From positions 21,328,001 to 21,392,000 of the forward strand of contig NC_091991.1 of NCBI RefSeq assembly GCF_044704955.1: a stretch of DNA of 64,000 nucleotides. The letters run 5' to 3'. The position numbers and the translations under genes were made by a program. Below, one piece after another: positions 1-55,820 of this stretch. Origin of the DNA: Pristiophorus japonicus. Its lineage: Eukaryota. The notes under the pieces are model-generated. The model ran no database searches, was not told where the DNA came from, and saw only the letters and a list, made by a program, of their open reading frames with translations. Positions within the stretch are counted from its first letter, which is position 1, and each line of letters begins with the position of its first letter.

Positions 1-925
1 ATCTCCAAGTTTGCAGATGACATTAAGCTGGGTGGCAGTGCGATCTGTGAGGAGGATGCTAAGAGGCAGGGGGACTTGGACAGGTTAGGTGAATGGGAAA
101 ATACAGGGCAGATGCAGTATAATGTGGCTAAGTGTGAGGTTATCCATTTTGGTTGCAAACAGGAAGGCAGATTATCTGAATGGTGACAGATTAATAAAAG
201 GGAAGGTGCAACGAGACCTGGGTGTCATGGTACATCGGTCATTGAAGGTAGGCATGCAGGTACAGCAGGCAGTAAAGGCGGCTAATGGCATGCTGGCTTT
301 CATAGCAAGGGGATTTGAGTACAGCAGCAGGGAGGTCTTACTGCAGTTGTACAGGGCCTTGATGAGACCCCACCTTGAGTACTGTGTACAGTTTTGGTCT
401 CCTAATTTGAGGAAGGACATTCTTGCTATAGAGGGAGTGCAGCGAAGGTTCACCAGACTGATTCCCGGGATGGCAGGACTGACATATGAAGAAAGACTGG
501 ATCGACTAGGCTTATATTCACTGGAATTTTTTTAGAAGAATGAGAGGGGATCTCATAGAAACATAACATTCTGACAGGATTGGACAGGTTAAATGCAGGA
601 AAAATGTTCCCGATGTTGGGGAAGTCCAGAACCAGGGGTCACAGTCTAAGGATAAGGGATAAGCCATTTAGGACCGAGATGAGGAGAAACTTCTTCACTC
701 AGAGAATTGTGAACCTGTGGAATTCTCTACCACATAAAGTTGTTGAGGCCAGTTCGTTAGATATATTCAAAAGGGATTTAGATGTAGCCCTTACGGCTAA
801 AAGGATCAAGGGGTATGGAGAGAAAGCAGGACTGGGGTACTGAAGTTGCATGATCAGCCATGATCATATTGAATGGTGGTGCAGGCTTGAATGGCCTGCT
901 CCTGCACCTACTTTCTATGTTTCTA
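1..925 (+). mobile_element. CR1-clade LINE, 3' part (RT C-terminus + 3' UTR)
   Basis: [34 protein letters not shown] motifs; tail TTCTATGTTTCTA; frameshifted. Confidence 0.92.
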
Positions 926-1362
926 ACGGATGGTTCGGAAAAGTGGGCCAGATGGACCAATAGTCTTCTGCCTAAATAAAATATTGTATGAAAAAGTAAA
1001 AAGAGTTTGCTACAGAATGCAAATAAGTTTTCTGCTTTAATGGAGGCATTTCCTAAAGGAATGTTAATATGAATCTCAAACAATATCTATTGAAATAAAA
1101 AGCACAGTTTACTGAGAAGTAATGTATGATTAGGACTAAGCTTTTTGCATGAAGAAACCAAGTAACGTGTCCAAAGGAGCAATAATTAAATCTTTTAAAA
1201 TACTATCCTGAGGAAGACACATTTTTCACTTCAAAGTTGAATTGTTTTTGAAGTATTTGAGTGCATTTTCATTTTAATTCTGTCATCTATTTCTGTTAGT
1301 GCAATAGTCATACACAGTATTTTATGCTGACAAATGATCAGGATACTCCGTCATTTGTTTTA

Positions 1363-1533
<171 letters not shown>

Positions 1534-2138
1534 TTAAAGGACACAAGAATTGTAAACATTCATTAGAACCAAGATTATGTTACAATTATGTGCAAAACAA
1601 CTACCTGAATTGCTGTTCTGAACTCCTGTTTTGTACAATTGACTTTCAATAAGCAAGTTGCGCACTTAGTATTTAAACCTGGAGCTCTGTTACAGTTTTA
1701 AATTACGAACAAAAGTATGTTTTGTATTTCAATAGCTCCAATTGTTAAGCACTGTGTTTTTGAGCAGACAATTGGAATATTTAGTTAGCGGAGTGCCTGT
1801 AAACTTGCCACCTTGGTTGGAACATTTCATCAATTTGTCAGCCTGTTGAATGAGGCAGAGCATTCCAAAGCACCCCATTGCTGCAATTTATTAACACACA
1901 TGTAGTGGTAAGGTACAAGTTCATTGCTGCAATTGCCTCATTGCTAGGGAATGGTGCAGTCAAGGAAGAGGGAATTCAGCACCACCTCACTCAAGTTGCA
2001 CCATTAATTGGTCAATTTTAAAACTTCTTTCAGTCAGTGGATGCAAGGGAACAAAAATACTGCTATATATACTGCTGTCAATCATTTTCTTCATCTTTCC
2101 AACTACAATCAGAAAGTAGTATAGAAATAAAACATTTA

Positions 2139-2405
<267 letters not shown>

Positions 2406-4044
2406 TCATATTTTTCTTATTTCCCTTGGGCATTTACATCCATTTAGTGTTAGCGTTTCTACCTACCAACCTAAAAAAACTAGCAGAAATCAACTAATGG
2501 CTTCAAAATAGTTCACAACTATAAATTCACTATGAATATAGGCTCATTAATAAGCCATCTGAAAGCAAACAATTGCACTGAAATGTCAAGGGACACAGAC
2601 TCATAACTTAAGCATCATCAATTGTAGGATAAAATACAATAGGATTTTGCAGCAGTGGTAGGTTTAGAAATTTCTGAAAGGGAATGTGATAATTGAAGAT
2701 GTGGGATTTATTTACTAAGAAAATGTTGTTTTTTGACTTTTTGTGCATTTGCCAGCATTCGAGTCTAATGTAATTCTGTCTTTCAAACCAAGAATAATTT
2801 ATCCTGGGATACAGATATTTTAAATGTGGAAAAGTAATTACACAGACTTCAAAACATCAGTTCCTTCTACTAAAAATGTAACCCCAAATAAACTATGCTG
2901 AAATATTTCACTACAGGCAACTACTAATAAATCCAACTGACTTAAGGTTCCCAACAGACCCGAATATGAACAATGCCAGGACCAAGCAATCCCGAGTCCC
3001 ACTTGGGAAACTGAAAGACTCACATGTAATAAATAGTAAGGTACCCAGAGAGAGCGGAGGAGAGCCAGCAGTATGAATGAATTTATGAAGCTGCCATTTT
3101 AGACCAGAGTATTGTCATTGCCATGCTGCCCAATAGAATTTCAAAACATTACACAAAGAACAGTTAAAACTAATTAAAACAGTTAGAGCAATGTTAACCA
3201 ATAGAAATTGCTGAGTAGCAATAGATATGGCTAAGGTGGCACCATATTAGCCACATGCACTACTTTTAGTAAAAAAAAAATGCCTTGCATTCACTCACAC
3301 AATACAGGTAAATGCACTTTGCATGTGTATATTTATGTAACACATTTCTGAGCTGTAGATTCCATGTAATTCAATGTAATCAGGAAATATAGTAAAGGAC
3401 ACAAAAAAGAGGGCTTGACAATATTGATCAAAGATACTGTTAGAAAGGGATGTTGTACTTGAGGGTTCAAAGACAGAATCTATTTGGTTAGAATTAATGA
3501 ACAGTAGAGGAGCTATTACACTGCTGGGTGTATGCTATAGGACACCAAATAGTGGAAAGGAGATAGAGGAGCAAATTTTAAGGCAAATTGCAGAAAGATG
3601 CAAGAACTATAGAGTAGTAATAATAATAGGGAATTTCAATGACCCTAATATCGACTGGGAAGATATAGGGCAAAAAGGGAGAGGATTCCTGAAATGTGCA
3701 CAAGAGAACTTTCTTGATCAGTGTGTTTCCTGCCCAAGAAAAGCAGTGCTAGATCTAGTTCTGGGGAATGAAGTGGGTCAATTGGAGCATGTTTCAGTGG
3801 GGAGCATTTGGGAAACAATGATCACAATATCATGAGGGAGAAAGGACAAACATCCAAAGCAAGAGCTCCCTGGATGACTAAAAGTAGAGAGATTAAAATA
3901 AAACAGAAAAAGGAGGCATATGATCAATGTCAGGTTTATAATTCAGTAGAGCAGGGGTTCTCAACCAGGGGCTCGCAAGAAGGTTTCAAGGGGTCCACCA
4001 AAGAAAGGATTACACAAACTAAAGCTGGTGCTTAATATCAGTAA

Positions 4045-7000
4045 TCATCAATGGCAGTCCTTTGGAATTGAGGAAGACTTGCTACCACTCCTAAGCATGA
4101 GTTATTTGGTTCTCGTATTGGACTGCACAGCCACCCAAGTCTCTGTCACGGGTGGGACAGACAGTGTTTGAGGGGAAGGGGTGGGCAGGGAGCCTGGTTT
4201 GCCGCACGCTCTTTCCGCTGCCTGCGCTTGATTTCTGAATGCTCTCGGCGACGATACTCGTGCAGCTCAGCACCCTCCCGGATGCACTTCCTCCACTTAG
4301 GGCGGTCTTTGGTCAGGGACTCCCAGGTGTCAGTGGGGATGTCGCACTTTATCAGGGAGGCTTTGAAGGTGTCCTTGTAACGTTTCCTCTTTTGCTCATT
4401 TGCTATGGACGAGTTCTGGGTAGAGCACTTGCTTTGGGAGTCTCGTGTCTGGCATGCGAACTATGTGGCCTGCCCAGTGGAGCTGATTAAGTGTGGTCAG
4501 TGCTTCAATGCTGGGGATGTTGGCCTGGATGAGGACGCTAATGTTGGTGCGTCCGTCCTCCCAGGGGATTTGTATGATCTTGGAGACATCGCTGGTGGTA
4601 TTTCTCCAGCGACTTGGTGTCTGCTGTACATGGTCCACACCTCAGCCATACAGGAGGGCAGGTATTACTACAGCCCTGTAAACCATGAGCTTGGTGACAG
4701 TTTCGAGGGCCTGGTCTTCAAACAGTCTTTTCCTCAGGCGGCTGAAGACTGCATTGGCGCACTGGAGGCGGTGTTGGATCTCATCGTCAATGCCTGTTCT
4801 TGCTGATAGAAGGCTCCCGAGATATGGGAAATGGTCCATGTTGTCCAGGACTGCGCTGTGGATCATGATGTCTGGGGGGCAATGCTGTGCGGCAAGGACA
4901 GGCTGATGGAGGACCTTTGTCTTACTGATGTTTAGCGTAAGACCCATGCTTTCATACGCCTCAGTAAATACATCGACTATGTCCTGGAGTTCAGCCTCTG
5001 TATGTGCGCAGACGCAGGCGCCATCCGTGTACTGTAGCTCGACGACAGAGGTTCGGGTGGTCTTGGACCTGGCCTGGAGACGGCGAAGGTTGAACAGCTT
5101 CCCACTGGTTCTGTAGTTTAGTTCCATTCCAGCTTGTCAACTGTGAGGTGAAGCATGGCAGCGAGGAAGATTGAGACGAGGGTTGGGGCAATGACGCAGC
5201 CCTGCTTGACCCCGGTTTGGACGTGGATTGGGTCAGTGATGGATCCGTTGGCAAGGATCACAACCTGCATGTCGTCGTGGAGCAGGCGGAGGATAGTGAC
5301 GTACTTTTGGGGGCATCCGAAACAGAGGAGGACGCTCCATAAACCCTCATAGTTAACAGTGTCAAAGAACTTTGTAAGGTCGAAGTCGGCCATGTAGAAG
5401 GGCTGGCACTATTCCCTGCAGCTGTCGCGCTGCAAAAATCATGTCCGTTGTACCCCGGAGGGGAAAAAATCCGCACTGCGACTCCGGGAGGAGCTCCTCG
5501 GCCACGGGGAGAAGACGGTTGAGGAGGACTCTAGCGACGACTTTCCCAGTGGCTGATAACAAGGAGATTCCTCTGTAGTTGCCGCAGTCGGACTTGGCCC
5601 CTTTTTTAAAGATGGTCATCTTTTAAAGATGATGTATCTTTGAGATCTTCCGGCATGCTCTCCTCCCTCGAGGGATGAGGTTGTGTATTCGCGCCAGCAG
5701 TGCCTTTCCGCCATACTTCAGTGCCTCAGCAGGGATTCCATCCGCTCCCGTAGCCTTGTTGTTTCTTTAGCTGTCTTATGGCTTTTTCTACCTTATGCAG
5801 TGTTAGGGTCTCACTGAGGTGGTGGCAGGTAGCATGCTGTGAAATAGAGTCGCGAACACTCGAGTCAAAGGCAGAGTCTCAATTGAGGAGATCTTCAAAG
5901 TGCTCCTTCCAGCGGGCCCTTACTGCCTCGGTGTCCTTGATGAGTGTTTCCCCACTCTTGGACAGCAGTGGGGTGGGGCCTTGGGAGTTTGGACCGTAGG
6001 TAGCCTTGACTGCGATGAAGACTCCTCGCACATAATGGCTGCCAGCCAGCTGCTGTATCTCCTGTGCTTTCTCCATCCACCACCTGTTCTTTAGGTCCCG
6101 GGTTCTTTTGATGGACCCTAGCCTTCAACCGTCTGTAATGCTGCTTTGCTGCTCCAGAGTTGGGTTGCTGTTTAAGGCTCAGAAATGCCCTGCGCTTGCA
6201 ATCTATTAGCTCTTGAATCTCCTGATCATTCTCACCAAACCAGTCCTGGTGTTTCCTGGTTGAGTGACCGAGCATCTCTTTGCAGGCACTGGTTATGGAG
6301 GCCTGGAGGGCAGACCAAGCTCTGTGGGCATTCTGCATCTCAGGGTCATCAAGGCACGCCAGGTTAGCTGTGAGGCGCTGACTGTATAGGGCTCTCTTAG
6401 CTGGGTCATTAAGTGCCCCGGCATTGACTTTTTTGCGACACTGCTTCTGCTGTCCCCTCCGCTTTGGGGCTTTGTTGATGTCAATGATGGATCGGATTAG
6501 GCGGTGGTCTTTCCAGCAGTCGTCAGCTCCTGTCATGGCACGGGTGATGCGCACATCCTTGCGATCCCTGGCTTGGACAGTGACATAGTCGAACAGGTGC
6601 CAGTGTTTGGAGCAAGGGTGTTGCCATGATGTCTTGTATTTGTCCCTCTGGCGGAACAAGATGTTGATGACAAGTTCATGCTCTAGACATTTTGTCAGAA
6701 GAAGGGTACCCCTGGAATTGACTTTCCCTACCCCCTCTATGCCAATCATGCCTCCCCAGAGGTCTGTGCCCTTGCCGACCCTGGCATTGAAGTTGCTGAG
6801 GAGGATCAGTTTGTCGTCCGCGGGGACACAGGTCAGGGATTTTGAGATTGGAGTAAAAACCCTCTTTGGCCTCATCTGTTGCATCGAGTGTTGGGGCGTA
6901 AGCACTGATGACTGTCGCGCACTGGCTCCGGGATAGGGTGAGTCGAAGCATCATGAGGTATTCAATAGCTCCGCAGGGGGAGTCTTTGAGGCGGTCGACC

Positions 7001-7085
7001 AGCTTGTTTTTGAAGGCGAAGCAGACTCCATGGAGGCGGTGTTCTGCCTCTGGTTTCCCTTTCCAGAAGATGGTATAATCTCCAC
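4045..7085 (-). mobile_element. RTE (BovB-like) LINE, degenerate APE+RT
   Basis: ISAYAPTL, SWQHP.SKHWHLFDY, NYRGISLLS, GVKQGCVIAPTL, FPYLGS motifs. 14-bp TSD CTTAATATCAGTAA at 4031-4044 and 7086-7099. Confidence 0.93.
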
Positions 7086-8153
7086 CTTAATATCAGTAAC
7101 CAAACCAAGAATGGTGCTGCTGCCTAGTGGCTTCGCTTGGAACTGCAACTGTAAAGATTTCAAATGGAGTAGAGTTTCAGTCTCTGGTTTATTCACTTCA
7201 ACAGAGTTCTCGAGTGTTCCTCACACTGAACTACACAGGGGTAGAGAATCGATGCACGGACAATTCCCCTTCAGTTGCCGGCCTATATAATTGGATCTGG
7301 TGAACATGAAGCAGATTAAACTGTTGCTCAGGTTCATCCATTTATTTTGTGTTTTTCAATGTCCCAGCTGATACTTTCTGCCTCTACTGCAAAATGTCTG
7401 CAACAGAACATCGGGATTTGCAGATGAAAATCCCTTTCACTTAACTGTTCAATCTCCAATAGCCTCCAACCCCAGTAGCCCCTTAGAATCAATAATAAAC
7501 ATAATGTGATACTTGGGGCAGCACCATACAAAAGAAAGGGAACATATTGAGGGAGAGTAAAGCAAGAATTTGAACTCCTCAGATCCTTTTAGGAACTGTG
7601 ACAGTTAAACACAACAACAGACTCATTTAGAGCTGGGCACTGCAGTGAACAGAACGGGGGAGGGCCAACTGAGAGATCAATGTAGAATCCATTCCTCCCC
7701 CAACAGTAAAAACTGGACTATTAAATATAAAAATTCCAAACTACATTACAGCCCGCAAAAAGAGCTGGGCAGGAAAAGGTTAATTCAAACATTGCAGACA
7801 AACCATCAGACATCATGAGACACAATGATACAGGCTATCTGCCATCAATCTAAATCACCAGACAATGGCATCAAGAGAGAGACATTCATTATCAGAGCAC
7901 CAGAAGAGAGACAACCACATTTCCAATGGTGTTCTGTCTGTACCAAGGAGTGGAATCCACACAGACAATGGCATCAAAAGAGGGACATTCACACATTCGA
8001 TGGTCCCTGCCATTGCAGCGAAACTATGACTCATCGAGAGATTGGACATCATCAGAGCACCAGAAAAGACATTCACACCTTCAATGGTTTTCTGTCTGAC
8101 ATTCACACATTCCTCAACCATAGATACGAAGGAAGGCTTTGCATTGTGTTGCA

Positions 8154-21292: not shown

Positions 21293-24200
21293 AGATAGGG
21301 AATAGATAGGCGTTTCTACGGCCGCAACCGAGACTCCAGGATGGTATGTTGCCTCCCTGGTGCAAGGGTCAAGGATGTCTTTCGGAGCGGGTGCAGGACA
21401 TTCTAAAAAGGGAGGGAGAACAGCCAGTTGTCGTGGTGCACATTGGTACCAATGACATAGGTAAAAAAAGGGATGAGGTCCTACGAAATGAATTTAAGGA
21501 GCTAGGAGCTAAATTAAAAAGTAGGACCTCAAAAGTAGTAATCTCGGGATTGCTACCAGTGCCACGTGCTAGTCAGAATAGGAAGCGCAGGATAGCTCAG
21601 ATGAATACGTGGCTTGAGCAATGGTGCAGCAGGGAGGGATTCAAATTCCTGGGGCAGTGAAACCGGTTCTGGGGGAGGTGGGACCAGTACAATCCGGACG
21701 GTCTGCACCTGGGCAGAATCGGAACCAATGTCCTCGGGGGAGTGTTTGCTAGTGCTGTTGGGGAGGAGTTAAACTAATATGGCAGGGGGATGGGAACCAA
21801 TGCAGGGAGATAGAGGGAAACAAAAAGGAGGCAAAAGCAAAAGACAGAAAGGAGATGAGGGCAGAGAAACCCAAGGCAAAGAACAAAAAGGACCATTGTA
21901 CAGCAAAATTCTAAAAGGACAGAGGGTGTTAAAAAAACAAGCCTAAAGGCTTTGTGTCTTAATGCAAGGAGTATCCGCAATAAGGTGGATGAATTAACTG
22001 TGCAAATAGATGTTAACAAATATGATGTGATTGGGATTACGGAGACATGGCTCCAGGATGATCAGGGCTGGGAACTCAACATCCAGGGGTATTCAACATT
22101 CAGGAAGGATAGAATAAAAGGAAAAGGAGGTGGGGTAGCATTGCTGGTTAAGGAGGAGATTAAGGCAATAGTTAGGAAGGACATTAGCTTGGATGATGTG
22201 GAATCTATATGGGTAGAGCTACAGAACACCAAAGGGCAAAAAACGTTAGTGGGAGTTGTGTACAGACCTCCAAACAGTAGTAGTGATGTTCGGGAGGGCA
22301 TCAAACAGGAAATTAGGGGTGCATGCAATAAAGGTGCAGCAGTTATAATGGGTGACTTTAATATGCACATAGATTGGGCTAACCAAACTGGAAGCAATAC
22401 GGTGGAGGAGGATTTCCTGGAGTGCATAAGGGATGGTTTTTTAGACCAATATGTCGAGGAACCAACTAGGGGGGAGGCCATCTTAGACTGGGTGTTATGT
22501 AAAGAGAAAGGATTAATTAGCAATCTCGTTGTGCGAGGCCCCTTGGGGAAGAGTGACCATAATATGGTGGAATTCTGCATTAGGATGGAGAATGAAACAG
22601 TTAATTCAGAGACCATGGTCCAGAACTTAAAGAAGGCTAACTTTGAAGGTATGAGGCGTGAATTGGCTGGGATGGATTGGCGAATGATACTTAAGGGGTT
22701 GACTGTGGATGGGCAATGGCAGACATTTAGAGACTGCATGGATGAACTACAACAATTGTACATTCCTGTCTGGCATAAAAATAAAAAAGGGAAGGTGGCT
22801 CAACCGTGGCTATCAAGGGAAATCAGTGATAGTATTAAAGCCAAGGAAGTGGCATACAAATTGGCCAGAAATAGCAGCGAACCTGGGGACTGGGATAAAT
22901 TTAGAACTCAGCAGAGGAGGACAAAGGGTTTGATTAGGGCAGGGAAAATGGAGTATGAGAAGAAGCTTGCAGGGAACATTAAGACGGATTGCAAAACTTT
23001 CTATAAATATGTAAAGAGAAAAAGGTTAGTAAAGACAAACGTAAGTCCCCTGCAGTCAGAATCAGGGGAAGTCATAACGGGGAACAAAGAAATGGCGGAC
23101 CAATTGAACAAGTACTTTGGTTCGGTATTCACGAAGGAGGACACAAACAACCTTCCGGTTATAAAAGGGATCGGGGGGTCTAGTAAGGAGGAGGAACTGA
23201 GGAAAATCCATTAGCCGGGAAATTGTGTTGGGGAAATTGATGGGATTGAAGGCCGATAAATCCCCAGGGCCTGATGGACTGCATCCCAGAGTACTTAAGG
23301 AGGTGGCCTTGGAAATAGCTGATGCATTGACAGTCATTTTCCAACATTCCATTGACTCTGGATCAGTTCCTATAGAGTGGAGGGTAGCCAATGTAACCCC
23401 ACTTTTTAAAAAAGGAGGGAGAGAGAAAACAGGGAATTATAGACCGGTCAGCCTGACATCGGTAGTGGGTAAAATGATGGAATCAATTATTAAGGATGTC
23501 ATAGCAGTGCATTTGGAAAGAGGTGACATGATAGGTCCAAGTCAGCATGGATTTGTGAAAGGGAAATCATGCTTGACAAATCTTCTGGAATTTTTTGAGG
23601 ATGTTTCCAGTAGAGTGGACAAGGGAGAACCAGTTGATGTGGTATATTTGGACTTTCAGAAGGCGTTCGACAAGGTCCCACACAAGAGATTGATGTGCAA
23701 AGTTAGAGCACATGGGATTGGGGGTAGTGTGCTGACATGGATTGAGAACTGGTTGTCAGACAGGAAGCAAAGAGTAGGAGTAAATGGGTACTTTTCAGAA
23801 TGGCAGGCAGTGACTAGTGGGGTACCGCAAGGTTCTGTGCTGGGGCCCCAGCTGTTTACACTGTACATTAATGATTTAGATGAGGGGATTAAATGTAGTA
23901 TCTCCAAATTTGCGGATGACACTAAGTTGGGTGGCAGTGTGAGCTGCGAGGAGGATGCTGTGAGGCTGCAGAGCGACTTGGATAGGTTAGGTGAGTGGGC
24001 AAATGCATGGCAGATGAAGTATAATGTGGATAAATGTGAGGTTATCCACTTTGGTGGTAAAAACAGAGAGACAGACTATTATCTGAATGGTGACAGATTA
24101 GGAAAAGGGGAGGTGCAAAGAGACCTGGGTGCCGTGGTACATCAGTCATTGAAGGTTGGCATGCAGGTGCAGCAGGCGGTTAAGAAAGCAAATGGCATGT

Positions 24201-24840
24201 TGGCCTTCATAGTAAGGGGATTTGAGTACAGGGGCAGGGATGTGTTGCTACAGTTGTACAGGGCATTGGTGAGGCCACACCTGGAGTATTGTGTACAGTT
24301 TTGGTCTCCTAACTTGAGGAAGGACATTCTTGCTATTGAGGGAGTGCAGCGAAGGTTCACCAAACTGATTCCCGGGATGGCGGGACTGACCTATCAAGAA
24401 ATACTGGATCAACTGGGCTTGTATTCACTGGAGTTCAGAAGAATGAGAGGGGACCTCATAGAAACATTTAAAATTCTGACGGGGTTAGACAGGTTAGATG
24501 CAGGAAGAATGTTCCCAATGTTGGGGAAGTCCAGAACCAGAGGTCACAGTCTAAGGATAAGGGGTAAGCCATTTAGGACCGAGATGCGGAGGAACTTCTT
24601 CACCCAGAGAGTGGTGAACCTGTGGAATTCTCTACCACAGAAAGTTGTTGAGGCCAATTCACTAAATATATTCAAAAAGGAGTTAGATGAGGTCCTTACT
24701 ACTCGGGGGATCAAGGGGTATGGCGAGAAAGCAGGAATGGGGTACTGAAGTTGAATGTTCAGCCATGAACTCATTGAATGGCGGTGCAGGCTAGAAGGGC
24801 CGAATGGCCTACTCCTGCACCTATTTTCTATGTTTCTATG
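21293..24840 (+). mobile_element. Young CR1 LINE: partial ORF1 (SGNH esterase) plus near-complete ORF2 (APE+RT) with one frameshift
   Basis: VVVHIGTND / DGLHL esterase motifs; ORF2 21952-23214 (ITETW, YRPP, GDFN, SDH) and 23225-24748 (RT); TCTATGTTTCTATG tail. Confidence 0.96.
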
Positions 24841-31975: not shown

Positions 31976-32233
31976 CATTGTGGAGTCTGTGAACCGACTT
32001 AAAAACCAATTGCACGGGACTGCCAAGTCCACAATAGATAAAGGGAGGACTCCCACATTAAAGGCCCTCCATTGGGGACCCTGCCTCCTCCAGCCAGTAA
32101 GATGGTGCAGCATTGAGGGTCCGGACGGCAGACGAGGATGGCAAAATGGAGGATGTGCAAGAGCAGCCCATACAGGAAACCCCTCCACGCAGAACTGAAA
32201 GGGAAGGGGATTTCCCGGAGGCGGCTAAAGTTG
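31976..32233 (-). mobile_element. Degenerate Tx1-like ORF2 C-terminal fragment, next to a probable LTR remnant (31838-31975)
   Basis: QWRAFNVGVLPLSIVDLAVPCNWFLSRFTDS parallels the Tx1 at 40200-40500. Confidence 0.7.
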
Positions 32234-32648
32234 TTAAAGGTATATTAAAATAGCTCTACAACTATTTTTATACCTTTAAGCCAAGTGCCTCCTTCTTTAA
32301 GAGCACAAAAATCCACAAATTAACTAATAAACATTAAAGGGAAGCTTGACAAATCAAATTAAATTAAAATCAAACTCTGCAAACCTGTGGAGCGTACTCA
32401 CAGGTGCATACATTACAGTCACCAAGAACTGTATTTATGGGATTGGTTAATAAGCCACATTATAGCCTTTAGTTGAAAAGAGAAATTGTTATTTGCAAAG
32501 CCCTAAAGCAAAGTTATATTTAAAAATGAAACTAAATACTTGCACTTACAAATATCGAATTAACACTTTAGAAATATTCTGGATATCTTTCAAAGATTCT
32601 GCAGTGGTTCTGAACAAAAATTCATAAATATTACAATCTATCCATTTT

Positions 32649-33659
32649 CTACAAACTTAATTACACCCTCACCCATGCTATCCTCCTTACTCAAACAGAA
32701 GACAGATATTTCAGAGGATGATACAAGTGGTAATGTAGTAGCAAAGGTACAAAGTTGATTGATTTGACAGGAAATAAAGGGTCAAGGTTAATGGACATTG
32801 CTCAGATTGAAAGAGGGTTGTAAATGGTGCAGTGGGTACATTTCAATTCTCAATACAAATGGATGATTTGTACTCAGTCAAAGAGAGTATAATATTGAAA
32901 TTTTATGATGACATGAAAGTAGAGAGTTTAACAAACAGGAGAACTGTTGGATATAGACAAGTTAGTCGAATAAACAGACAAGTGTCACAGAATCATACAG
33001 CCCAGTGTCTGTGCCAGCTCTTCGAAACAGCTATCCAATTAGTCCCACTCCCCTGCTCTTTCCCCGTAGCCCTGCAAATGTCTCCTTTTAAATATAATTT
33101 AATATGGAGAATGTGAGGCAATACATTGGAATAAGGAATAGAAATATAAATTCAATGGAAATATGTTGAAGCTTCCCCTAACAAAGCTATGATAGACACA
33201 ATGGGCTGAAAGGCCTCCTTCTATTGTGTGAACTTCTATGATTCTGTGGATAGGGTCAGTGTCACTCTGCCAAACACAGTGGAAGAGTAAGAATATCCAA
33301 ATGTGAGTTTGAGAGAGAGAGAAACTTGCATTTATATAGCACCTTTCATGATCACCGGACATCCCAAAGCACTTTAAAGCCAATGAAGTACTTTTTTAAG
33401 TGTAGTCACTGTACTTTTTTTGAAGTGTAGTCACTGTTGTAGTGTAGGAAATGTGGCAGCCAATTTACACACAGCAAGGTCCCACAAACAACATAATCTG
33501 TTTTAGTGATGTTGATTACCACTGATCCTTTATTTCCTGTCAATCAACCAACTTTCTACCTTTGCTGCTACATTACCACTTGTATCATTCACTGAAATAT
33601 CTACCATCTGTTTCTGAGTAAGGAGGACAGCACAGGAGACGGACTAATTAAGTTTGTAG
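32649..33659. repeat. ~135-bp inverted repeat pair (32649-32784 and 33523-33659)
   Basis: Arms align by eye at roughly 85% (CTACAAACTTAATTA...GATATTTCAG..GATACAAGTGGTAATGTAG.AGCAAAGGTA.AAAGTTG..TGACAGGAAATAAAGG.TCA). Confidence 0.85.
33321..33520 (-). mobile_element. SacSINE1/DeuSINE-like SINE 3' fragment
   Basis: AACTTGCATTTATATAGCACCTTTCA..GTAGTCACTGTTGT..GCAGCCAATTT shared with copies at 54320-54505 and 55262-55637. Confidence 0.7.
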
Positions 33660-33705: not shown

Positions 33706-33936
<231 letters not shown>

Positions 33937-34269
33937 TTAAGTGTCACTGACTGCCTTATGAGATCCGAGATGTACAATGATCATGAATCAGGATTAGTTT
34001 CACTCATTTTACTCAAGTGTAGGTTTTCACCAAGTGTTGTGGTCTGTTATAAAGATATATTATTCAATCACCAAATTATTATTATATTTATCAGAATGGC
34101 AAGACACCAGCTTTCAATCGTTGTAAAACCTATTATTGCCAGAAGTTATTCTTCTTACCATCCAATGCCCCATTTTCATTACATCACAACAACCACAATA
34201 CATCACGAGTGTGGTGCATGCCAAGATAGAATGGTCAGGAAAGAGAGGGGTTCCAATGCTACACATTGA

Positions 34270-34620
34270 TTTTTTTTTTTAAATTCGTAGCCAATCGTTC
34301 CAATTCTTTGTCAAATCACAAACGCCAGAGGTCACCTTGCACACATCAAGGATCACTCTGCGCCAATGCTCTTAGCCAAAAGGCCTAGAGCCACTGCACG
34401 GTTCCTGGAAGTACTGCAATACCAGGTTCGTGCCATGGAGGTGGATGGGTCAGGTCCCCCACACACCTCCGTGGAGGTGGATGGGTCAAGCCACCCCACC
34501 CACCTCCTGTTTCCAAAAAAGCAAGCATATACCTTCCTGATCCAGGGAGAACCACCTTGGGGTTATGGTGGTTACTCCCCTGTCAGGTCAGTTACGCATG
34601 ATCTTAGCCAAAAGGCCGAG
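34270..34620 (-). mobile_element. U2/U1 snRNA-derived chimeric retroposon (SINEU-like) with poly(A) tail
   Basis: Minus strand order: CTCGGCCTTTTGGCTAAGATC (U2 5' stem-loop I), U1-like ACCTGACAGGGGAG..AAGGTGGTTCTCCC, U2-like Sm/SLIII (duplicated), ACCTGGTATTGCAGTACTTCCAGGAACCGTGCA (U2 SLIV), second GGCCTTTTGGCTAAGA, ~85 nt tail, A11. Confidence 0.8.
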
Positions 34621-35140
34621 GAATGACACAAGGTGGACATAGATGTACATTGCCAAGAGCAATATCTTCAGAACTCTAATCACAGCATAGCCACATTAAA
34701 TTAAGAGAGTGCATTGTCCTATATTAGAAAATGAGAAAAATAATTGAAAACAAATGACAAAGGTAAAGCAAAAATGCAGAAGGGGGGCAGTGGGGTGGAG
34801 GGTTAAATGTTTCCTGGTGTATGCTGACATCAACAGTGAGCTACACAGCATCACAGCCCCATTATTCATAACAAATCAATTCCTAGCTGACATGACCCTC
34901 TGTTGATTTTTGTTTTGGTGCTAAATTATTAAAAAGAATGTGACAATAGCAGTGTTCCTTGAACAGGAAATGAATTCTGCTGATAAAGAACACAAGTGTC
35001 ATTTATGGGGAAAAGTTGATTTGCAGAATATTAATAAGATAAAGGAGCAACAGAATAGAAGAAAAAGCAGTCTGTATTTCCAATATTAAACATCTTCTGT
35101 ATTTAATGTTTTAACTTCAAAACAAGCAGGAATGCTTGTT

Positions 35141-35830
35141 TTGAAGGTTGGCATGCAGGTACAGCAGGCGGTTAAGAAAGCAAATGGCATGTTGGCCTTC
35201 ATAGCGAGGGGATTTGAGTACGGGGCAGGGAGGTGTTGCTACAGTTGTACAGGTCCTTGGTGAGGCCACACCTGGAGAATTGTGTACAGTGTTTGTCTCC
35301 TAACTTAAGGAAGAACATTCTTGCTTTTGAGGGAGTGCAGCGAAGGTTCACCAGACTGATTCCCGGGATGGCGGGACTGACATATCAAGAAAGACTGGAT
35401 CAACTGGGCTTGTATTCACTGGAGTTCAGAAGAATGAGGGGGGATCTCATAGAAACGTTTAAAATTCTGACAGGTTTCGACAGGTTAGATGCAGGAAGAA
35501 TGTTCCCAATGTTGGGGAAATCCAGAACCAGGGGTTACAGTCTGAGGATAAGGGGTAAGCCATTTAGGACCGAGATGAGGAGAAACTTCTTCACCCAGAG
35601 AGTGGTGAACCTGTGGAATTCTTTACCACAGAAAGTTGTTGAGGCCAATTCACTAAATATATTCAAAAAGGAGTTAAATGTAGTCCTTACTACTAGGGGG
35701 ATCAGGGGGTATGGCGAGAAAGCAGGAATGGGGTACTGAGGTTGCATGTTCAGCCAGGAACTCATTGAATGGCGGTGCAGGCTCGAAGGGCCGAATGGCC
35801 TACTCCTGCACCTATTTTCTATGTTTTTAT
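35141..35830 (+). mobile_element. CR1 3' fragment, same subfamily as 21293-24840
   Basis: Near-identical RT C-terminus and 3' UTR. Confidence 0.92.
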
Positions 35831-36253
35831 GAATGACAAACTAGCTTAATTATGTAAATCTTTATTTTGTTACTCAATTAAACACAAGCATTAAATAGAT
35901 ATGGTTGCAATGTTGTCAGCAGGCTTAATGTATGAGTATTGATACCATGCCGGGGAAACATTCGCTTAAAAAGGAGATAATGTGTGTGCAACATTCCTAA
36001 TTCATCTCTTCAAACTGCTCTGACCACTACGATCACTTCATCTTGTGGTTACATTGCTCAAAATGCTCCCTCCATTCACATCCAAAGTTTAAAAGAACAG
36101 TTATAATGGTGCTGCAGTGCCTACTATTTTCAGTTTATTGAAATGTGAAAATCGAACATTCCAACAGTTACTCTTTACCAAAGCCATTAACACTCTTTAT
36201 ATTATTAATTGTACTAGATTCTAAAAGGTTGTTCCTTATAAAGGCAACTTAAA

Positions 36254-36272
36254 ATATATATATATATATATA
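36254..36272. repeat. (TA)n microsatellite
   Basis: Direct observation. Confidence 0.9.
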
Positions 36273-36504
36273 AATCTCTTTCAATCAAGTACACATTGTA
36301 CAGGTACAAGGTACTGGTAATGAAATGAGAGTACAGTTACAAGCAGAGTATAATCCGCAGCAAACTTGTGGTGTCAAATGCCTGCAAAGGTGAGCTGACC
36401 TTCGAGGTTAGTAAGTAAGCAGTTTTAAAGCAATTCACATGCTTAACATCCAACACTTTGTTTGGGTCGTCCATGTAATAAAAGGGAACCATCCACTTAC
36501 TTAC

Positions 36505-39368: not shown

Positions 39369-42300
39369 TAGATAGGTTAAGCGAATAGGCTAAGGTTTGG
39401 CAGATGGAATACAATGTCGGAAAGTGTGAGGTCATCCACCTTTGAAAAAAATACAGTAAAAGGGAATATTATTTGAATGGGGAGAAATTACAACATGCTG
39501 CGGTGCAGAGGGACCTGAGGGTCCTTGTGCATGAAACTCTTTTTGGATCCTTGTGCATGAAACTCTTTTTGGAGTTCACCTGCAAAAACATAAAACATTA
39601 AACGGTGCCACCCGACCTGGGTGACACTCCAGACATTTACAAGGCCCTTTTTTTTCCCCCCTTTTTTTTTTTGTGTTTTTCTTTTTTTCGTTTTTTTTTT
39701 GGGCACTAAAATCACAATTTTCCCCAGTGCCCCCTATAAAAGGGAAGGGGGACACTAAAAGCACCGGCAATTAAAACAAATTAAACTTAAAAACGAAAAA
39801 ATCAAATTAAAATTTGGTTGCCGGGCGTGATGATGCACTCCAGTCCCTCCGGTGCCCACCTCTCGCGGAAGGCCGCGAGCGTACCGGTGGACACCGCGTG
39901 CTCCATCTCCAAGGATACCCTGGACCGGATGTAAGAGCGGAAGAGAGGCAGGCAGTCAGGTTGAACGACCCCCTCGACCGCCCGCTGCCTGGACCGGCTG
40001 ATGGCACCCTTGGCCGTGCCCAGGAGCAGTCCTACGAGGAGGCCTTCGGACCTACCCGCTCCCCTCCGCACAGGGTGCCCAAAGATCAGGAGAGTGGGAC
40101 TGAAGTGCAGCCAGAATTTCAGGGGCAGCCCCTTCAAATAGTGGAACAGGGGCTGCAACCTTGTGCATTCAATAAAAACATGGAACACGGACTCCTCCAG
40201 ACCGCAGAAATTGCAGGCGGCCTGGGAGTCCGTGAACCGGCTTAAAAATTTGTTGCACGGCACTGCTCCGTGCACCACCCTCCAGGCCAAGTCCCCGATG
40301 AATAGTGGGAGGACCCCTGCGTAGAGTGCCCTCCATCGGGGACCCCCGCCTCCTCCGGACGGCAAGATGGTACGCCATGGCGTGTCCGGACGGCCGGCGA
40401 GGATGGCAAAGTTGAGGGTGTGCAGGAGCAGCCCGTACAGGAAACCCCTCCGCACGGAACTGAAAGGCACGGAGGGGATTTCCCCGAGGCGGCTCAAGTT
40501 GTGAGGCGCCGGCCCCCGAGGGAGGTTCCGGGGTTTGGCGCCAATGAGGAATTCCGTCCGGAATCAGTTCGGACGGGATCTCCCCACGTGCTTGAGCCTC
40601 CTCGATGCACCTAACGGAGTCAGGGCCCAGAGCTGTTTTTAGCGACTCGATGGCATCGGCCGCGTGGCGGACGTTGGCAGAATTTAGGCGCCGCGCCAGC
40701 GTGTCTGGCGCCATCCAGCCCGCTCCTCCGCCATCGAGCAGGTCCCTGACCCTGGTCACCTCACCAGCCACAGCCCTCTCTTCCGACCGCCACATAAAAC
40801 CTCAGCCGTGGAGGTACGGATTCCCGAGCTGCGGTTCCTGCAGGACGGCCGCCACTCCAGCCGGCGGAGAGCTGCGCTTGGTGGAGACTTTGTTCCAGAC
40901 CCTGATGAGTTCCCTGTAAAAGACAGGCAGCTCCCGGAGGGCGGTCCTGGCACCCCCCAAGTTCACAAACAGGAGCTGCGTGTCATAATTGAGGTCGCGC
41001 TGCTGGCGGAAGAAATACCTCGCCAGAGCGCACCACCTAGGAGGGGGCTCGACGTAAAGGTATCTCTGCAGGGTCTGAAGACGGAAAGTCGCGAGCTGGG
41101 CGCTGACGCACACCAACGACTGACCGCCCTCCTCAAGCGGGAGACTCAAGACCGCGGCAGAGACCCAGTGCTTTCTGTTGTTCCAGAAGAAGTCCACCAG
41201 CTTCTTCTGTATCTTGGCGACAAACGCAGGGGGAGGGGTCAAAGTGACCAGCCGGTACCACAGCATTGCGGCCACCAGCTGGTTTATGACTAGCGCTCGA
41301 CCCCTGTAGGACAGCACTCGGAGCAGTCCTGTCCAGCGCCCTAGGCGAGCGGCGACCTTGGCCTCCAGCTCCTGCCAGTTCGCCGGCCAGGCTCCCTCGT
41401 CGGGGCTAAGGTAGACTCCCAGATAGAGGAGATGGGTCGTGCTCCAGGCAAAAGGCCTGAGCTCCTCCGGCAGGGAGTCCACCCGCCACTGACCCACCAG
41501 GAGTCCGGAACATTTCTCCCAGTTGATTCTGGCGGAGGACGCGGCCGAGTAAATCTCCTGGCACTCACGCATCCTCCGCAGGTCAGCGGGATCCTCTACC
41601 GCGAGGAGCACGTCATCGGCGTAAGCCGAGAGGACGACCTCCACGCCCGGCCCTTGCAGAGCCAGTCCCGTCAACCTCGTCCGCAAGAGGCGCAGGAAAG
41701 GCTCCACGCAAACGGCGTATAACTGGCCGGACATGGGGCATCCCTGGCGCACCCCTCTCCTAAAGCGAAGGGGCGCCGTCAAGGACCCGTTAACCTTAAT
41801 CAGACACTCCGCGGCGGCGTACAAAAGTCGGATCCGGGCGACGAAATGCGTCCCGAACCCGAAAGCGCGTAGAGTTCCGAGCAGATAGTCGTGATCCACC
41901 CTGTCGAACGCCTTCTCTTGGTCGAGGGATAGGAAGGCGACCGACAGACCAGCCTCCTGGGAACAATGGATGAGGTCCCGGACCAGATGGATGTTATCGT
42001 GGATTGTCCGGCCCTAAAGGAGTGTGATTATCAGCTGTGATAACCGAATTGTTAAACTGTTGTGTTTCAAGCTACATTGACGTTGCCTGTGTCCGTGTAC
42101 ATCCATATCGCAGCGCTCCTTGTGCATGAATCCCAAAAAAAGTTAGTTTGCAGGTGCAGCAGATAATCAGAAAGGCGAATGGAATGTTGGCCTTCATTGC
42201 GAGAGGGATGGAGTACAAAAGCAGGGAGGTCCTGCTGCAACTGTATAGGGTATTGGTAAGGCCGCACCTGGAGTACTGCGTGCAGTTTTGCTCACCTTAC

Positions 42301-49420: not shown

Positions 49421-49779
49421 CACACAGGCTACCTTTATGGTAGCCGGCAGCCGATTTGCACACAGCAAGATCCCACAAACAGCAATGAGATAAATGAATA
49501 GACCATCTGTTTTTAGACGCTGTTTGAAGGATATATGTTGACAAGGACATCGGGTGAAGTTTCAATGAGCCATGTGCCGCAGAATAACCCACCAGAAAAC
49601 CACTGTACAGGGCAAATGTGCGAATCAACTCTGAACTCATTTTTCTGCTCCCATTTGGACCCCTGGTGAAGGGAAGCAGTATTTTTTCTGGAGAGAGGAA
49701 TCGTTAAAACTGAAACAATATAGATGGCCCTCCATAGTCCCAATGCGAATGGATTAATTTTGAAGCGTAGTCACTGTTG

Positions 49780-52850: not shown

Positions 52851-55261
52851 CAATCATCTTGTGGGTTTCCTTTGAATATATATGTTTAATTGGCAGCCCT
52901 TTTTGAGTGTTAGAGAGACTTCATGGATGGTCAGTAACCAATCACTAGGTAAGGAAGTTCAGGTGAGGGCATGTAACGTAACCAATAAGATGAAATGTAA
53001 TGATTCAGTGTTCAATCTCTGGGATTGTGACTAACTATCTAGGTATTGAGAGGTAAAGGCACACACTAGGTCACAGGGAGTGAACGCTTGCCTATAGGTG
53101 TGGTCTGAAACACTGAACCACTGAACCAAAAAATGAATTATTACAAAGTAGCACAGTTAGAGAGTAAGAACTTTGATTGTTGAATCCTACCTTTTCTGAT
53201 TTACAAAAATCTTGAACATATTCATTTTCATTGCTTGATTACACATAAAATCCATAGTTTATAGGCATAAATAATTTCAATACAACATCAATCTGTATTT
53301 ATATAATGCCCGTAAAGTAGAAAAGCTTTCCATGTTGCCACACAGAGGTGTAATCAAAAAAATGTACGCTCAGCCAAACAAAGAAATATTGGTCAAAAAG
53401 ATGCGATTTAAGGGAAAGGTCTTAAAGGAGGTGGGAGGTGGAGGGGTAGAAATGTTTAGGGACATGGCCACCAATGGTGAGGCGAAGGAGGGGGGGTGGC
53501 AGGGGGGAGCCAAAGTCAGAGGAAAAGAGAGTTTGGTCAGGGAGGTTTAGAGCTAGATGAGGTTACAGAGATATTGAAAGACATGGCCATATATTTAATG
53601 TGTTGGAGGCCCAGGAGCCAAAGTAGGTCAGTGAGGACAGTGGGTGACAGCTGAAGGGGATTTGGTGTGATAGTGTTATATTTCTCTTTCACCAAAAGTT
53701 TAATTGTACAGAACCAGCTGAAACTATTGCGTTGGCATTTATTAACTTTTATTTGACTCAGGAGCAGAGGGAATCAGGAACCAGTTATGTTTTATTTAAA
53801 AGTTGATGTCAGAGGTCCTGTGATGGGATGAACTTGACTTGTGGACAGGATGGGGTCAGTATGGAGCACGGGTAAACTAATGTCCAGATTCAGAGAAGGT
53901 TTTCATGTGGAAAGTGGAGGAGGTGTGGAGAATCGACCATGAGCCAGCCTTAGGTTGATCCAGGGGTCCAGCGGAGGTGAATCGTGGCCTTGGTGATGAG
54001 TAGTGCACACCAATAGATCGCGTATAACAGTGGAAAGCAGCAGAGCAAAGGTCATTCAGTAGCCGTGGAGCAGAATCTAGAGCAGGGTGGGAACCAGCAA
54101 AAACAGATCAGAGCTAACTCATGGTAGAGTGGAAAATTCCCAACAGAGAAGTAAAAAACTGAGAATCCAGTAGCAGATAAGATACTAGAATCGAGACGAC
54201 CCAGCAGAAAATAGCATCTCCATGGAAACAACGATGATGTTGGAGGTCCAGAAGCAGTGAAGAAATGGTCTACACCACACCTTGCCATTCTTTGTGTGTA
54301 AGTCATTGGCGGTCATAAAAAACTTTTCACGACCACCGGATATCTCAAAACACTTTACAGCCAATGAAGTAATTTTGAAGTGGAGTCACTGGTTGTAATG
54401 TGGGAATTTGTGCACAGCAGCCAATTTGTGCACAGCAAGCTCCCACAAACAGCAATGTGATAATGACCAGAAAATCTGTTTTGTTATGTTGGTTGAGGGA
54501 TTCAGGAGTTATTTATTCAACTTATTTTCCGATTGGAAATTGCACTGAGAAAAAAATCGCCGCACAGATGTAACTTCCTGCATATAGTGTAAAATGAGTC
54601 CGAAACCATGTTTAGCGAGCTGGCACAGGTAAGATGGGCCTAATGGCCTCCTTTTGCACTGTAACATTCTATGATTCTCTGATATACCTGCAATCTGTAA
54701 ACCTATTTGGAAAAGTTGATCGGTTGTATTTTCTTGTATAATATCATCCATTTGCATGGCACCTGCTACAGTTTGGGGTACATCAATTCAGCACAATACA
54801 AAGATAGTGGAAGCATGGAAAGAGGTCCAGATGCAAAGTGCAAGATTGTGGCGTCGAAGGAGTTTGACTGAAAATTTGATTTACGTTAAAAGTCCACTCC
54901 CGCCTCCATAATTTAATGGTCAAGTGGCCACCTGGTTGGCTATAAACCCTGCAGATCAGGTTTTATTTCTGCTCTGTGATGATTAAAGGCATTTCAATGG
55001 GTTGACACTTTGACATTTTTTTTCATTTTTAAAAAATTATGTGGTCATTCACACCTGTGAGTTTTATAATTGATTTGGAAATCTACTAATACTCTCTTTT
55101 TGAAGTTGTAATTGCATTATTCAGATTCCTTGTGCAAATTGGACCATACCACTCTTGCTTCAAACCTTTGGCTATTTGTATTTCCGATGTCATTTACTGC
55201 ATGCTGCATTTTAATGGCCATAAATCCATTATCACTTTTAAAATCTACTTCAACTATATTA

Positions 55262-55820
55262 AAGAAAGACTTGCGTTTATATAGCTTCTTTCACGACCAC
55301 TGGACATCTCAAAGCATTTTGCAGCCAATGAAGTACTTTTGGAATGTAGTCACTGTTGTAATTTAGGAAACACGGCAGCCAATTTGCGCACAGCAATCTC
55401 CCACAAACAGCAATGTGATAATGACCAGATAATCTGTTTTTATTATGTTGATTGAGGGATAAATATTTGCCAGGACACCGGGGATAATTCCCCACTCTTC
55501 TTCGAAATAAACTCCCTCAGCACTGCACTGGAGTGTCAGCCTAGATTTGTGTGCCTAAGTCCCTGGAGTGGAATTTGAACCCACAACCTTCTGACTCAGA
55601 GGTGATAAGTGCTAGGCACTGAGCCACAGCTGACACTCAAACAAAGTCTTGCATTTATAGCACCTTTCACAACCACAGGACATCCCAAAACGCTTTGCAG
55701 CCGTAATGTTCCTACATTACAACAGTGACTATACTCCAAAAGTACTTCATTGGATGTAAAGTGCTTTGGGAAGTCCTGAGGTCATGAAAGGTGCTGTAGA
55801 AATGCAAGTCTTTTCTTTTA
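55262..55820 (-). mobile_element. SacSINE1-like SINE (55262-55637) followed by two oppositely oriented SINE tail fragments
   Basis: tRNA-like head GTGGCTCAGTG..GGGTTCAAATTCC on the minus strand; shared L2-type 3' tail. Confidence 0.75.

What the first reader, a model, noticed from the sequence alone, without database searches (positions are those of the whole stretch)
34270..34620. Mosaic U2-U1-U2-U2 snRNA retroposon (SINEU-like) in TMEM19 intron 1
Seen on the minus strand, in order: U2 5' stem-loop I (34600-34620, 21 nt matching the U2 sequence as I recall it); a U1 5'-like block (34531-34593, ACTGACCTGACAGGGGAG..AAGGTGGTTCTCCC vs U1 ACTTACCTGGCAGGGGAG..AAGGTGGTTTTCCC) in place of the U2 branch-recognition/SLII region; a U2-like Sm tract TTTTTTGG; a tandemly duplicated SLIII (GACCCATCCACCTCCA x2); U2 SLIV (34395-34430); a second U2 SLI copy (34368-34390); an ~85-nt unique tail; poly(A). 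Established: SINEU elements with U1 or U2 heads were described in crocodilians and proposed to be mobilised by L1/Tx1-group LINEs. Inference: this is an independent shark snRNA-derived SINE, or a retrocopy of a chimeric variant snRNA, combining both spliceosomal RNAs. It lies sense to the TMEM19 pre-mRNA ~380 nt upstream of exon 2, and its U1 splice-site recognition sequence is altered (ACUGACCUG).
Basis: partly seen in the sequence, partly recalled or inferred. Interest (0 to 1): 0.85.

Follow-up and report, generated by a model that had tools for sequence, protein, structure and literature searches.

The report
Shark U2/U1 snRNA mosaic retroposon
A 357-base piece of DNA in a shark intron is stitched together from two splicing RNAs (U2 and U1) and ends in a poly(A) tail, so it looks like a jumping element of a kind described in crocodilians, although only this one copy could be seen.

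Summary
Window 34270-34627 (minus strand) scores above Rfam's U2 cut-off (52.5 vs 46 bits). The internal U1 block is the best of 4227 families but weak (15.6-18.1 bits, E 0.02-0.06). The doubled stem-loop III, stem-loop IV, second stem-loop I, 87-nt tail and A11 lie where stated, sense in TMEM19 intron 1 of a shark.

New here: the RNA keeps or tightens its hairpins (z -6.3). The sites used for splicing are altered: branch-site motif cut, U1 5' end changed and paired, U1-70K loop changed, Sm site without its A. Stem-loop IV is intact.

Best reading: a member of an snRNA-derived retroposon lineage that works like crocodilian SINEU, probably of independent origin. The defining test, copy number, could not be run: no genome was available and the window holds one copy. 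No target-site duplication was found. U1+U2 mosaics are already known in SINEU. Nine paper searches showed no shark case, but Repbase/Dfam could not be checked.

The parts
34270..34627 (-). Whole element: U2/U1 mosaic + second U2 head + tail + poly(A), about 357 nt; 52% G+C against 35-36% in both flanks
34593..34627 (-). U2 5' end, model positions 1-35: stem-loop I (22 nt identical to consensus, 34599-34620; one stem pair broken) and the first half of the branch-recognition motif
   Evidence: Rfam alignment; fold
34536..34592 (-). U1 5' block (about U1 positions 3-58) replacing U2 stem-loop II region: altered 5'-splice-site motif (8 of 9 of positions 3-11), full stem I hairpin (34545-34579), loop changed at U1-70K contacts G28, C31, G34 plus 2 extra bases
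   Evidence: contact positions from PMC4383343 passages
34513..34535 (-). U2-type spacer and Sm-like T6GG tract (34513-34520) lacking the leading A; 34522-34533 pairs back on 34590-34600 in the predicted fold
   Evidence: Sm nonamer
34473..34507 (-). U2 stem-loop III copy 1, uninterrupted 13-bp stem (the Rfam U2 model has a 4-nt bulge here)
34437..34470 (-). U2 stem-loop III copy 2 (tandem duplicate); stem differs from copy 1 at 1 of 26 positions, loop at 3 of 9
34396..34433 (-). U2 stem-loop IV with near-consensus loop (U2B''/U2A' site), best-kept functional module
   Evidence: binding role from PMC4371339
34368..34391 (-). Second U2 stem-loop I, joined a few bases after the U2 3' end; stem extended by two new G-C pairs
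34281..34367 (-). Tail of unknown origin, 87 nt; no Rfam hit, no match to LINE ends in the window, not more structured than shuffles
34270..34280 (-). A11 tract; no AATAAA or ATTAAA upstream; no TSD found
33891..36504 (-). Host: TMEM19 intron 1 (element sense, 380 nt before exon 2)

Best explanation
It is one copy of a shark retroposon lineage built from spliceosomal snRNAs and working like crocodilian SINEU. Inferred history: a short U2-headed, tailed, polyadenylated RNA (34270-34391) gained a near full-length U2 at its 5' end by template switching during LINE reverse transcription. That U2 had its positions about 36-80 swapped for the U1 5' end and its stem-loop III duplicated. The element has internal T-runs and no internal promoter, so master copies are probably read by RNA polymerase II from flanking promoters and copied in trans through the poly(A) by an L1/Tx1-group LINE. 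The RNA appears to have kept its hairpins and the U2B''/U2A' stem-loop, while the branch-site, 5'-splice-site, U1-70K and Sm signals decayed, so it should not act in splicing. Shown: modules, order, predicted folds, altered sites, poly(A), host. Inferred: copy number, order of events, polymerase, partner LINE, selection.
For: At least three rearrangements plus a tail and poly(A) in 357 nt. Such stepwise U1/U2 additions and partial duplications are what Kojima reports for SINEU-1 subfamilies. Fold z -6.28, 0 of 100 shuffles as stable; 2 of 89 other windows scored below -5 in a rougher scan, and one of them fell to -4.2 on re-run. The second stem-loop I differs from the Rfam consensus at 4 positions, breaks no pair and gains two G-C pairs; 0.18% of all 860,706 four-change variants do that (0.37% if G-U counts; post hoc). 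The flanks of the U1 hairpin, which come from different parent segments, pair with each other: 54 of 5000 shuffles and 72 of 4949 random native flanks do as well. T4, T6 and T4 runs, no B-box better than 2 mismatches, no PSE-like motif upstream, as described for SINEU. An L1-group LINE with a 14-bp TSD lies 5 kb away (97 bits to L1 ORF2 vs 53 to R2; CR1 control 59 vs 49), so such machinery existed in this genome.
Against: Only one copy in 64 kb, and no outside copy in any collection that could be searched, though none of these holds shark non-coding DNA. No TSD: best exact match 7 bp and not adjacent. The tail is not significantly folded (1313 of 3000 shuffles as stable) and is unrelated to the nearby L1-group LINE 3' end (159 of 1000 shuffles score as well). 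Part of the folding is simply inherited from U1 and U2. No shark U1/U2 sequence was available, so some 'compensatory' differences may be native shark sequence. Stem-loop IV alone is not unusually stable (z -0.9), and the 5' stem-loop I copy has a broken pair.
Confidence: 0.62

Rival explanations
1. One-off chimeric retropseudogene: a LINE reverse transcriptase jumped between U2, U1 and another RNA in a single insertion, and later local duplication and drift gave the rest. It never moved again.
For: Single copy in the window. U1/U2-LINE chimeras and snRNA retrocopies with poly(A) are common and usually do not propagate further (PMC13174262 passages; PMC4494074).
Against: Needs several switches and a duplication at one locus. 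Drift should erode stems, but the stems are kept or extended.
Confidence: 0.15
2. Two mobile modules fused at this locus only: a short U2-stem-loop-I + tail + poly(A) element (34270-34391, SINEU-1J-like) that picked up a separate U2/U1 mosaic RNA as a private 5' extension, or a tandem insertion.
For: The second head starts a few bases after the U2 3' end. Kojima found that 5' extensions are added to SINEU-2 copies independently many times and that tandem insertions occur.
Against: No A-tract or target remnant between the two modules. The two heads resemble each other a few bases beyond stem-loop I, which fits duplication inside one lineage.
Confidence: 0.13
3. Retrocopy of an expressed variant snRNA: sharks make a U2/U1 hybrid snRNA from a real snRNA gene elsewhere, and this is its processed copy.
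For: The 5' module spans U2 model 1-192 end to end. Divergent expressed human U2 variants keep structure by compensatory change (10.1101/2020.01.24.917260 passages). Stem-loop IV is intact.
Against: The Sm tract lacks the leading A of the Sm nonamer. The branch-site motif is halved, and the U1 5' end is changed and buried in a helix with pair probability 0.98-0.99. No PSE-like or 3'-box-like motif here, and snRNAs carry no such tail.
Confidence: 0.06
4. Footprint of a U2-targeting element (Keno or Utopia) or of a U1-targeting Dada inserted in a U2 gene and later mostly deleted.
For: The U2 break (after model position 35) is near the Keno/Utopia site between U2 nt 38 and 39 (PMC4640811 passages).
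Against: U2 does not resume at nt 39. The insert is U1-like with no coding remnant or A-tail. There is no U2 promoter upstream, and the poly(A) lies outside the U2 sequence.
Confidence: 0.04

Closest known systems
SINEU-1 (crocodilians; Kojima 2015, PMC4494074)
   Same: Short U2-derived head on a tail of unknown origin with poly(A) (SINEU-1J); later 5' additions of U1 or U2 pieces, including U2 on U1 (SINEU-1C/H); partial duplications; oligo-T inside; no LINE sharing the tail found.
   Different: Here the U1 piece sits inside a U2 that runs to its own 3' end, stem-loop III is doubled, and the host is a shark. The paper found no SINEU outside crocodilians. Tail homology could not be tested (consensus sequences are in figures and supplement that could not be read).
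SINEU-2 and SINEU-3 (crocodilians)
   Same: SINEU-2 is U1 5' + U2 3'; SINEU-3 is the U2 5' 32 nt joined to a later 83-nt U2 part, plus a short unrelated tail. The 5' module here looks like a SINEU-3-type deletion filled with a SINEU-2-type U1 head.
   Different: Extra second U2 head and 87-nt tail; no sign of a Mariner target (flanks are unique in the window, which is a weak test).
snRNA retropseudogenes and snRNA/LINE-1 chimeras (mammals; PMC13174262, PMC4494074)
   Same: snRNA joined head-to-tail to another RNA by reverse-transcriptase switching; poly(A) end.
   Different: Those are two-part, usually carry TSDs and a LINE or Alu 3' part, and do not propagate; this one has five or more parts and no recognisable LINE part.
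Keno and Utopia (U2-targeting LINEs; PMC4640811)
   Same: U2 sequence interrupted in the nt 30-40 region.
   Different: They insert between nt 38 and 39 of real U2 genes and encode proteins; neither is seen here.

Membership tests
SINEU (Kojima 2015) | 5' head derived from U1 or U2 snRNA | tested here: met
   U2 52.5 bits above cut-off 46; U1 block best of 4227 families, E 0.022
SINEU (Kojima 2015) | Short (under 500 bp), non-coding, 3' poly(A) | tested here: met
   357 nt, A11; no Pfam or credible protein hit for two open frames
SINEU (Kojima 2015) | Internal oligo-T and no recognisable internal promoter | tested here: met
   T4, T6, T4; no B-box with fewer than 2 mismatches; no tRNA (box motifs recalled)
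SINEU (Kojima 2015) | Many dispersed copies sharing one structure (a family, not independent retrocopies) | not testable with these tools
SINEU (Kojima 2015) | Target alteration of LINE type (TSD, truncation or none) | tested here: inconclusive
   No TSD; SINEU-2 shows all three outcomes; empty site unavailable
SINEU (Kojima 2015) | Target preference shared with a Tx1 LINE (Mariner-N4_AMi in crocodilians) | tested here: inconclusive
   Flanks match nothing else in the window; one copy cannot show preference
SINEU-1/2/3 proper (common descent) | Sequence homology of junctions and tail to crocodilian consensus sequences | not testable with these tools
   Figures not held, supplement unreadable; no Repbase or Dfam
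Functional U2 snRNA gene | Intact branch-recognition motif and stem-loop II, A-led Sm site, upstream PSE, 3' box | tested here: not met
   Motif cut after model position 35, region replaced; Sm tract without A; no PSE-like or 3'-box-like match outside the A-tract
Functional U1 snRNA gene | Full-length U1 with free 5' end, stem-loops I-IV and Sm site | tested here: not met
   Only about 55 nt of the 5' end; 15.6-18.1 bits vs cut-off 69.5
Keno/Utopia insertion | U2 resumes at nt 39 after a LINE 3' end | tested here: not met
   Alignment against site described

The most novel reading that the evidence does not exclude
Sharks express a U2/U1 hybrid small nuclear RNA from its own gene: a U2 scaffold carrying the U1 5' domain and a doubled stem-loop III. 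It binds U2B''/U2A' but has shed its splicing signals, and it both acts as a decoy or regulatory RNP and seeds a retroposon family, of which this is a decayed copy. (A milder version, an independent shark SINEU-like family that was selected to keep snRNP-protein hairpins while losing splicing signals, much as Alu keeps SRP binding, I put at about 0.3.)
Probability: 0.06. Interest if true: 0.85.

Novelty: new variant of a known kind. Interest (0 to 1): 0.5.

Why it matters
In the papers I could find, snRNA-headed SINEs are described from crocodilians only, and how they are transcribed without an internal promoter is stated as an open question. A second, probably independent origin in sharks would show that U1/U2 RNAs turn into mobile elements repeatedly. 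It would also give a new system for that question and for which snRNP proteins such an RNA keeps. The pattern of hairpins kept and splicing signals lost makes a direct prediction: across copies, stems and the stem-loop IV loop are conserved while the Sm, branch-site and 5'-splice-site motifs are not restored. If it proves single-copy, it is only an unusually elaborate pseudogene.

Tried and rejected
Other copies: self-BLAST of the window found only the element's internal duplications. Translating open frames to look for copies in protein sets failed: the 111-aa antisense frame gave 0 of 7 candidates and 2 weak hits among 1.84 billion representatives, both long repetitive proteins that I judged chance; a 69-aa sense frame gave no candidate. 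Plasmids and phages: no match. An exact 24-mer in GTDB genomes, looking for host contamination: 0; the second scan was not used. None of these sets holds shark non-coding DNA, so these blanks say little. Metagenome and viral contigs were closed and stayed unchecked.

TSD search up to about 880 nt upstream: nothing adjacent and above chance. Tail versus LINE ends in the window: no match. Tail versus Rfam: none. An accidental Pol III promoter (U2 giving an A-box, U1 a B-box): A-box-like matches are frequent, no B-box under 2 mismatches, T6 in the middle; rejected. The Rfam Prion_pknot hit (31.2 bits, cut-off 39) lies on the opposite strand over the doubled stem-loop III; rejected as an artefact. 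Tail structure is not above shuffles.

Shark genome supplements for an snRNA-SINE class: PMC10620051, 1 file, 0 hits; PMC8455134, 12 of 24 files, nothing relevant; PMC12361510, 11 of 12 files, only total SINE figures in the rows shown; PMC11979771 unreadable.

Full report
Observation. Rfam places U2 over 34389-34627 at 52.5 bits, above the curated cut-off of 46, the only such hit in the 64 kb. Model positions 8-29 match the consensus exactly for 22 nt (34599-34620). The match fades after position 35 and returns at the Sm region. The gap holds a U1-like block. U1 is the top family of 4227 when 34500-34600 is searched alone (15.6 bits, E 0.022) and scores 18.1 bits, E 0.058 in the wider search. 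These E-values cover all families, so for a family named in advance they are about 4000 times smaller, but the scores are far below the U1 cut-off of 69.5. By eye, 18 of 25 upper-case consensus positions in U1 1-48 match. Stem-loop III is doubled at 36-nt spacing. Stem-loop IV follows, then a second stem-loop I (21 of 23 nt identical to the first; Rfam U2 7-26), an 87-nt tail and A11. G+C is 52% against 35-36% in the flanks.

Host. The gene is TMEM19 (Pfam DUF92). Ten named proteins aligned to the window give six exons; full-length identity is highest to sharks (Heptranchias 85.7%, Mustelus 84.9%), lower to rays (81-82%), chimaera (75%) and reptiles (69%). The element is sense in intron 1 (about 33891-36504), 380 nt before exon 2.

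Structure. The 357-nt RNA folds as a string of hairpins, z -6.28, 0 of 100 shuffles as stable. In a rougher scan, 2 of 89 other windows scored below -5; one of these gave -4.2 on re-run. Some of this is inherited from U1 and U2, so I looked for pairs that the parents lack. (a) The second stem-loop I differs from the Rfam consensus at four positions, breaks no pair and gains two G-C pairs; 0.18% of 860,706 possible four-change variants do so (post hoc). (b) Around the U1 hairpin, the U2 remnant and U1 5' end pair with the downstream U1/U2 spacer in a rod of about 29 bp; its four main outer and inner helices have pair probabilities of 0.96-0.99, its two smallest pieces 0.53 and 0.76. 54 of 5000 shuffles of both flanks, and 72 of 4949 random window flanks, do as well. 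(c) Stem-loop III is an unbroken 13-bp stem where the Rfam model has a bulge; the two copies differ at 1 of 26 stem and 3 of 9 loop positions. Against: the tail is no more folded than shuffles (1313 of 3000), stem-loop IV alone has z -0.9, the 5' stem-loop I has one broken pair, and with no shark U1 or U2 sequence at hand some differences may be native. The evidence for selection on the mosaic is therefore suggestive (about the 1% level, post hoc), not proof.

Functional sites. The branch-recognition motif (model 33-38; role recalled) keeps only its first half. The U1 5'-splice-site motif has one change in positions 3-11 and is predicted to be paired. Of the U1-70K loop contacts named in PMC4383343, G28, C31 and G34 are changed and two bases inserted. 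The Sm tract lacks the leading adenines of the Sm nonamer given in that paper. The stem-loop IV loop, bound by U2B''/U2A' (PMC4371339), is near consensus. So the splicing signals are damaged while the scaffold is kept. One copy cannot tell whether this is the state of a master element or decay after insertion.

Mobility. The A11 end, unique tail and lack of a PSE-like motif upstream (motif recalled) point to retroposition. No TSD was found; SINEU-2 insertions show duplication, truncation or no change. The tail matches no LINE end in the window, as Kojima also found for SINEU-1 genome-wide. An L1-group LINE with a 14-bp TSD lies at about 39560-42116 (CR1 control). It shows that suitable machinery existed, not that it is the partner; calling it Tx1 is recalled, not tested. 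T4, T6 and T4 runs and the lack of a B-box argue against Pol III, so transcription from flanking Pol II promoters is inferred by analogy with SINEU. Copy number, the key test, could not be measured. The window has one copy and the searchable sets hold no shark non-coding DNA. At crocodilian SINEU densities (137-7700 per genome) a second copy in 64 kb is not expected.

Comparison with what is known. Kojima 2015 (PMC4494074; main text read, parts 1-4 of 5; figures and supplement not seen) describes U1+U2 (SINEU-2), U2-on-U1 (SINEU-1C/H), internally deleted U2 with a tail (SINEU-3), partial duplications and repeated 5' additions, and found none outside crocodilians. So mixing U1 and U2 is known. 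The arrangement here, with U1 inside an end-to-end U2, a doubled stem-loop III and a second head, and the shark host are not described there. Passages seen: PMC5381603, PMC4758252, PMC5786205, PMC7245038 and PMC13174262 cite only the crocodilian paper for U1/U2 heads; PMC5499810 on chimaera and shark SINEs has no 'SINEU' or 'snRNA' (30). Also passages of PMC4640811, PMC4383343 and 10.1101/2020.01.24.917260 (58), and the whole of PMC4371339. Nine searches (only the listed top rows seen, except 34, 46, 55 and 67 where nearly all were listed) showed no shark snRNA-SINE. The library lacks most subscription journals and Repbase Reports, and unread shark supplements may list such a class, so prior annotation in Repbase or Dfam is quite possible (my estimate about one in three).

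Verdict. A real, well-supported U2/U1 mosaic retro-element that works like SINEU. Membership by descent is untested, and the status of family is inferred (0.62; 0.75 with the two-module version). New variant of a known kind; interest 0.5, rising to about 0.7 if a shark family with covarying junction helices is shown.

Noticed in passing
window about 39560-42116 (minus): 5'-truncated L1-group LINE (RT and zf-RVT, three reading-frame pieces) with a 14-bp TSD, inserted in a CR1-like 3' region. Its A-tail and TSD are tandemly repeated once at the 3' end, and about 100 nt of unrelated-looking sequence sits at its 5' end (possible template switch). Possible Tx1-type targeting of CR1.
   Followed up: partly
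window 34326-34360 (minus): Tail hairpin with a symmetric 4x4 internal loop containing tandem G-A pairs (resembles a SECIS or kink-turn core, recalled); the tail as a whole is not more folded than shuffles.
   Followed up: partly
window 32174-32530 (minus): A+T-rich intronic stretch with several hairpins, z -4.2 against 100 shuffles; no Rfam gathering hit.
   Followed up: partly
window 34508-34530 (minus): The pyrimidine-rich spacer and T6 tract are followed by CAG, which looks like a possible cryptic 3' splice site in the TMEM19 pre-mRNA; not scored.
   Followed up: no
window 33318-33493, 49445-49554, 54322-54501, 55261-55818: Short dispersed repeat family with several copies in the window; resembles the shark Deu-SINE 3' part by recall only.
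   Followed up: no
window 1-64000: TMEM19 introns are filled with CR1-like, RTE-like and gypsy-like retroelement pieces; several CR1-like copies are 86-96% alike, and one has long open frames at 21859-24748 (clade names recalled).
   Followed up: no
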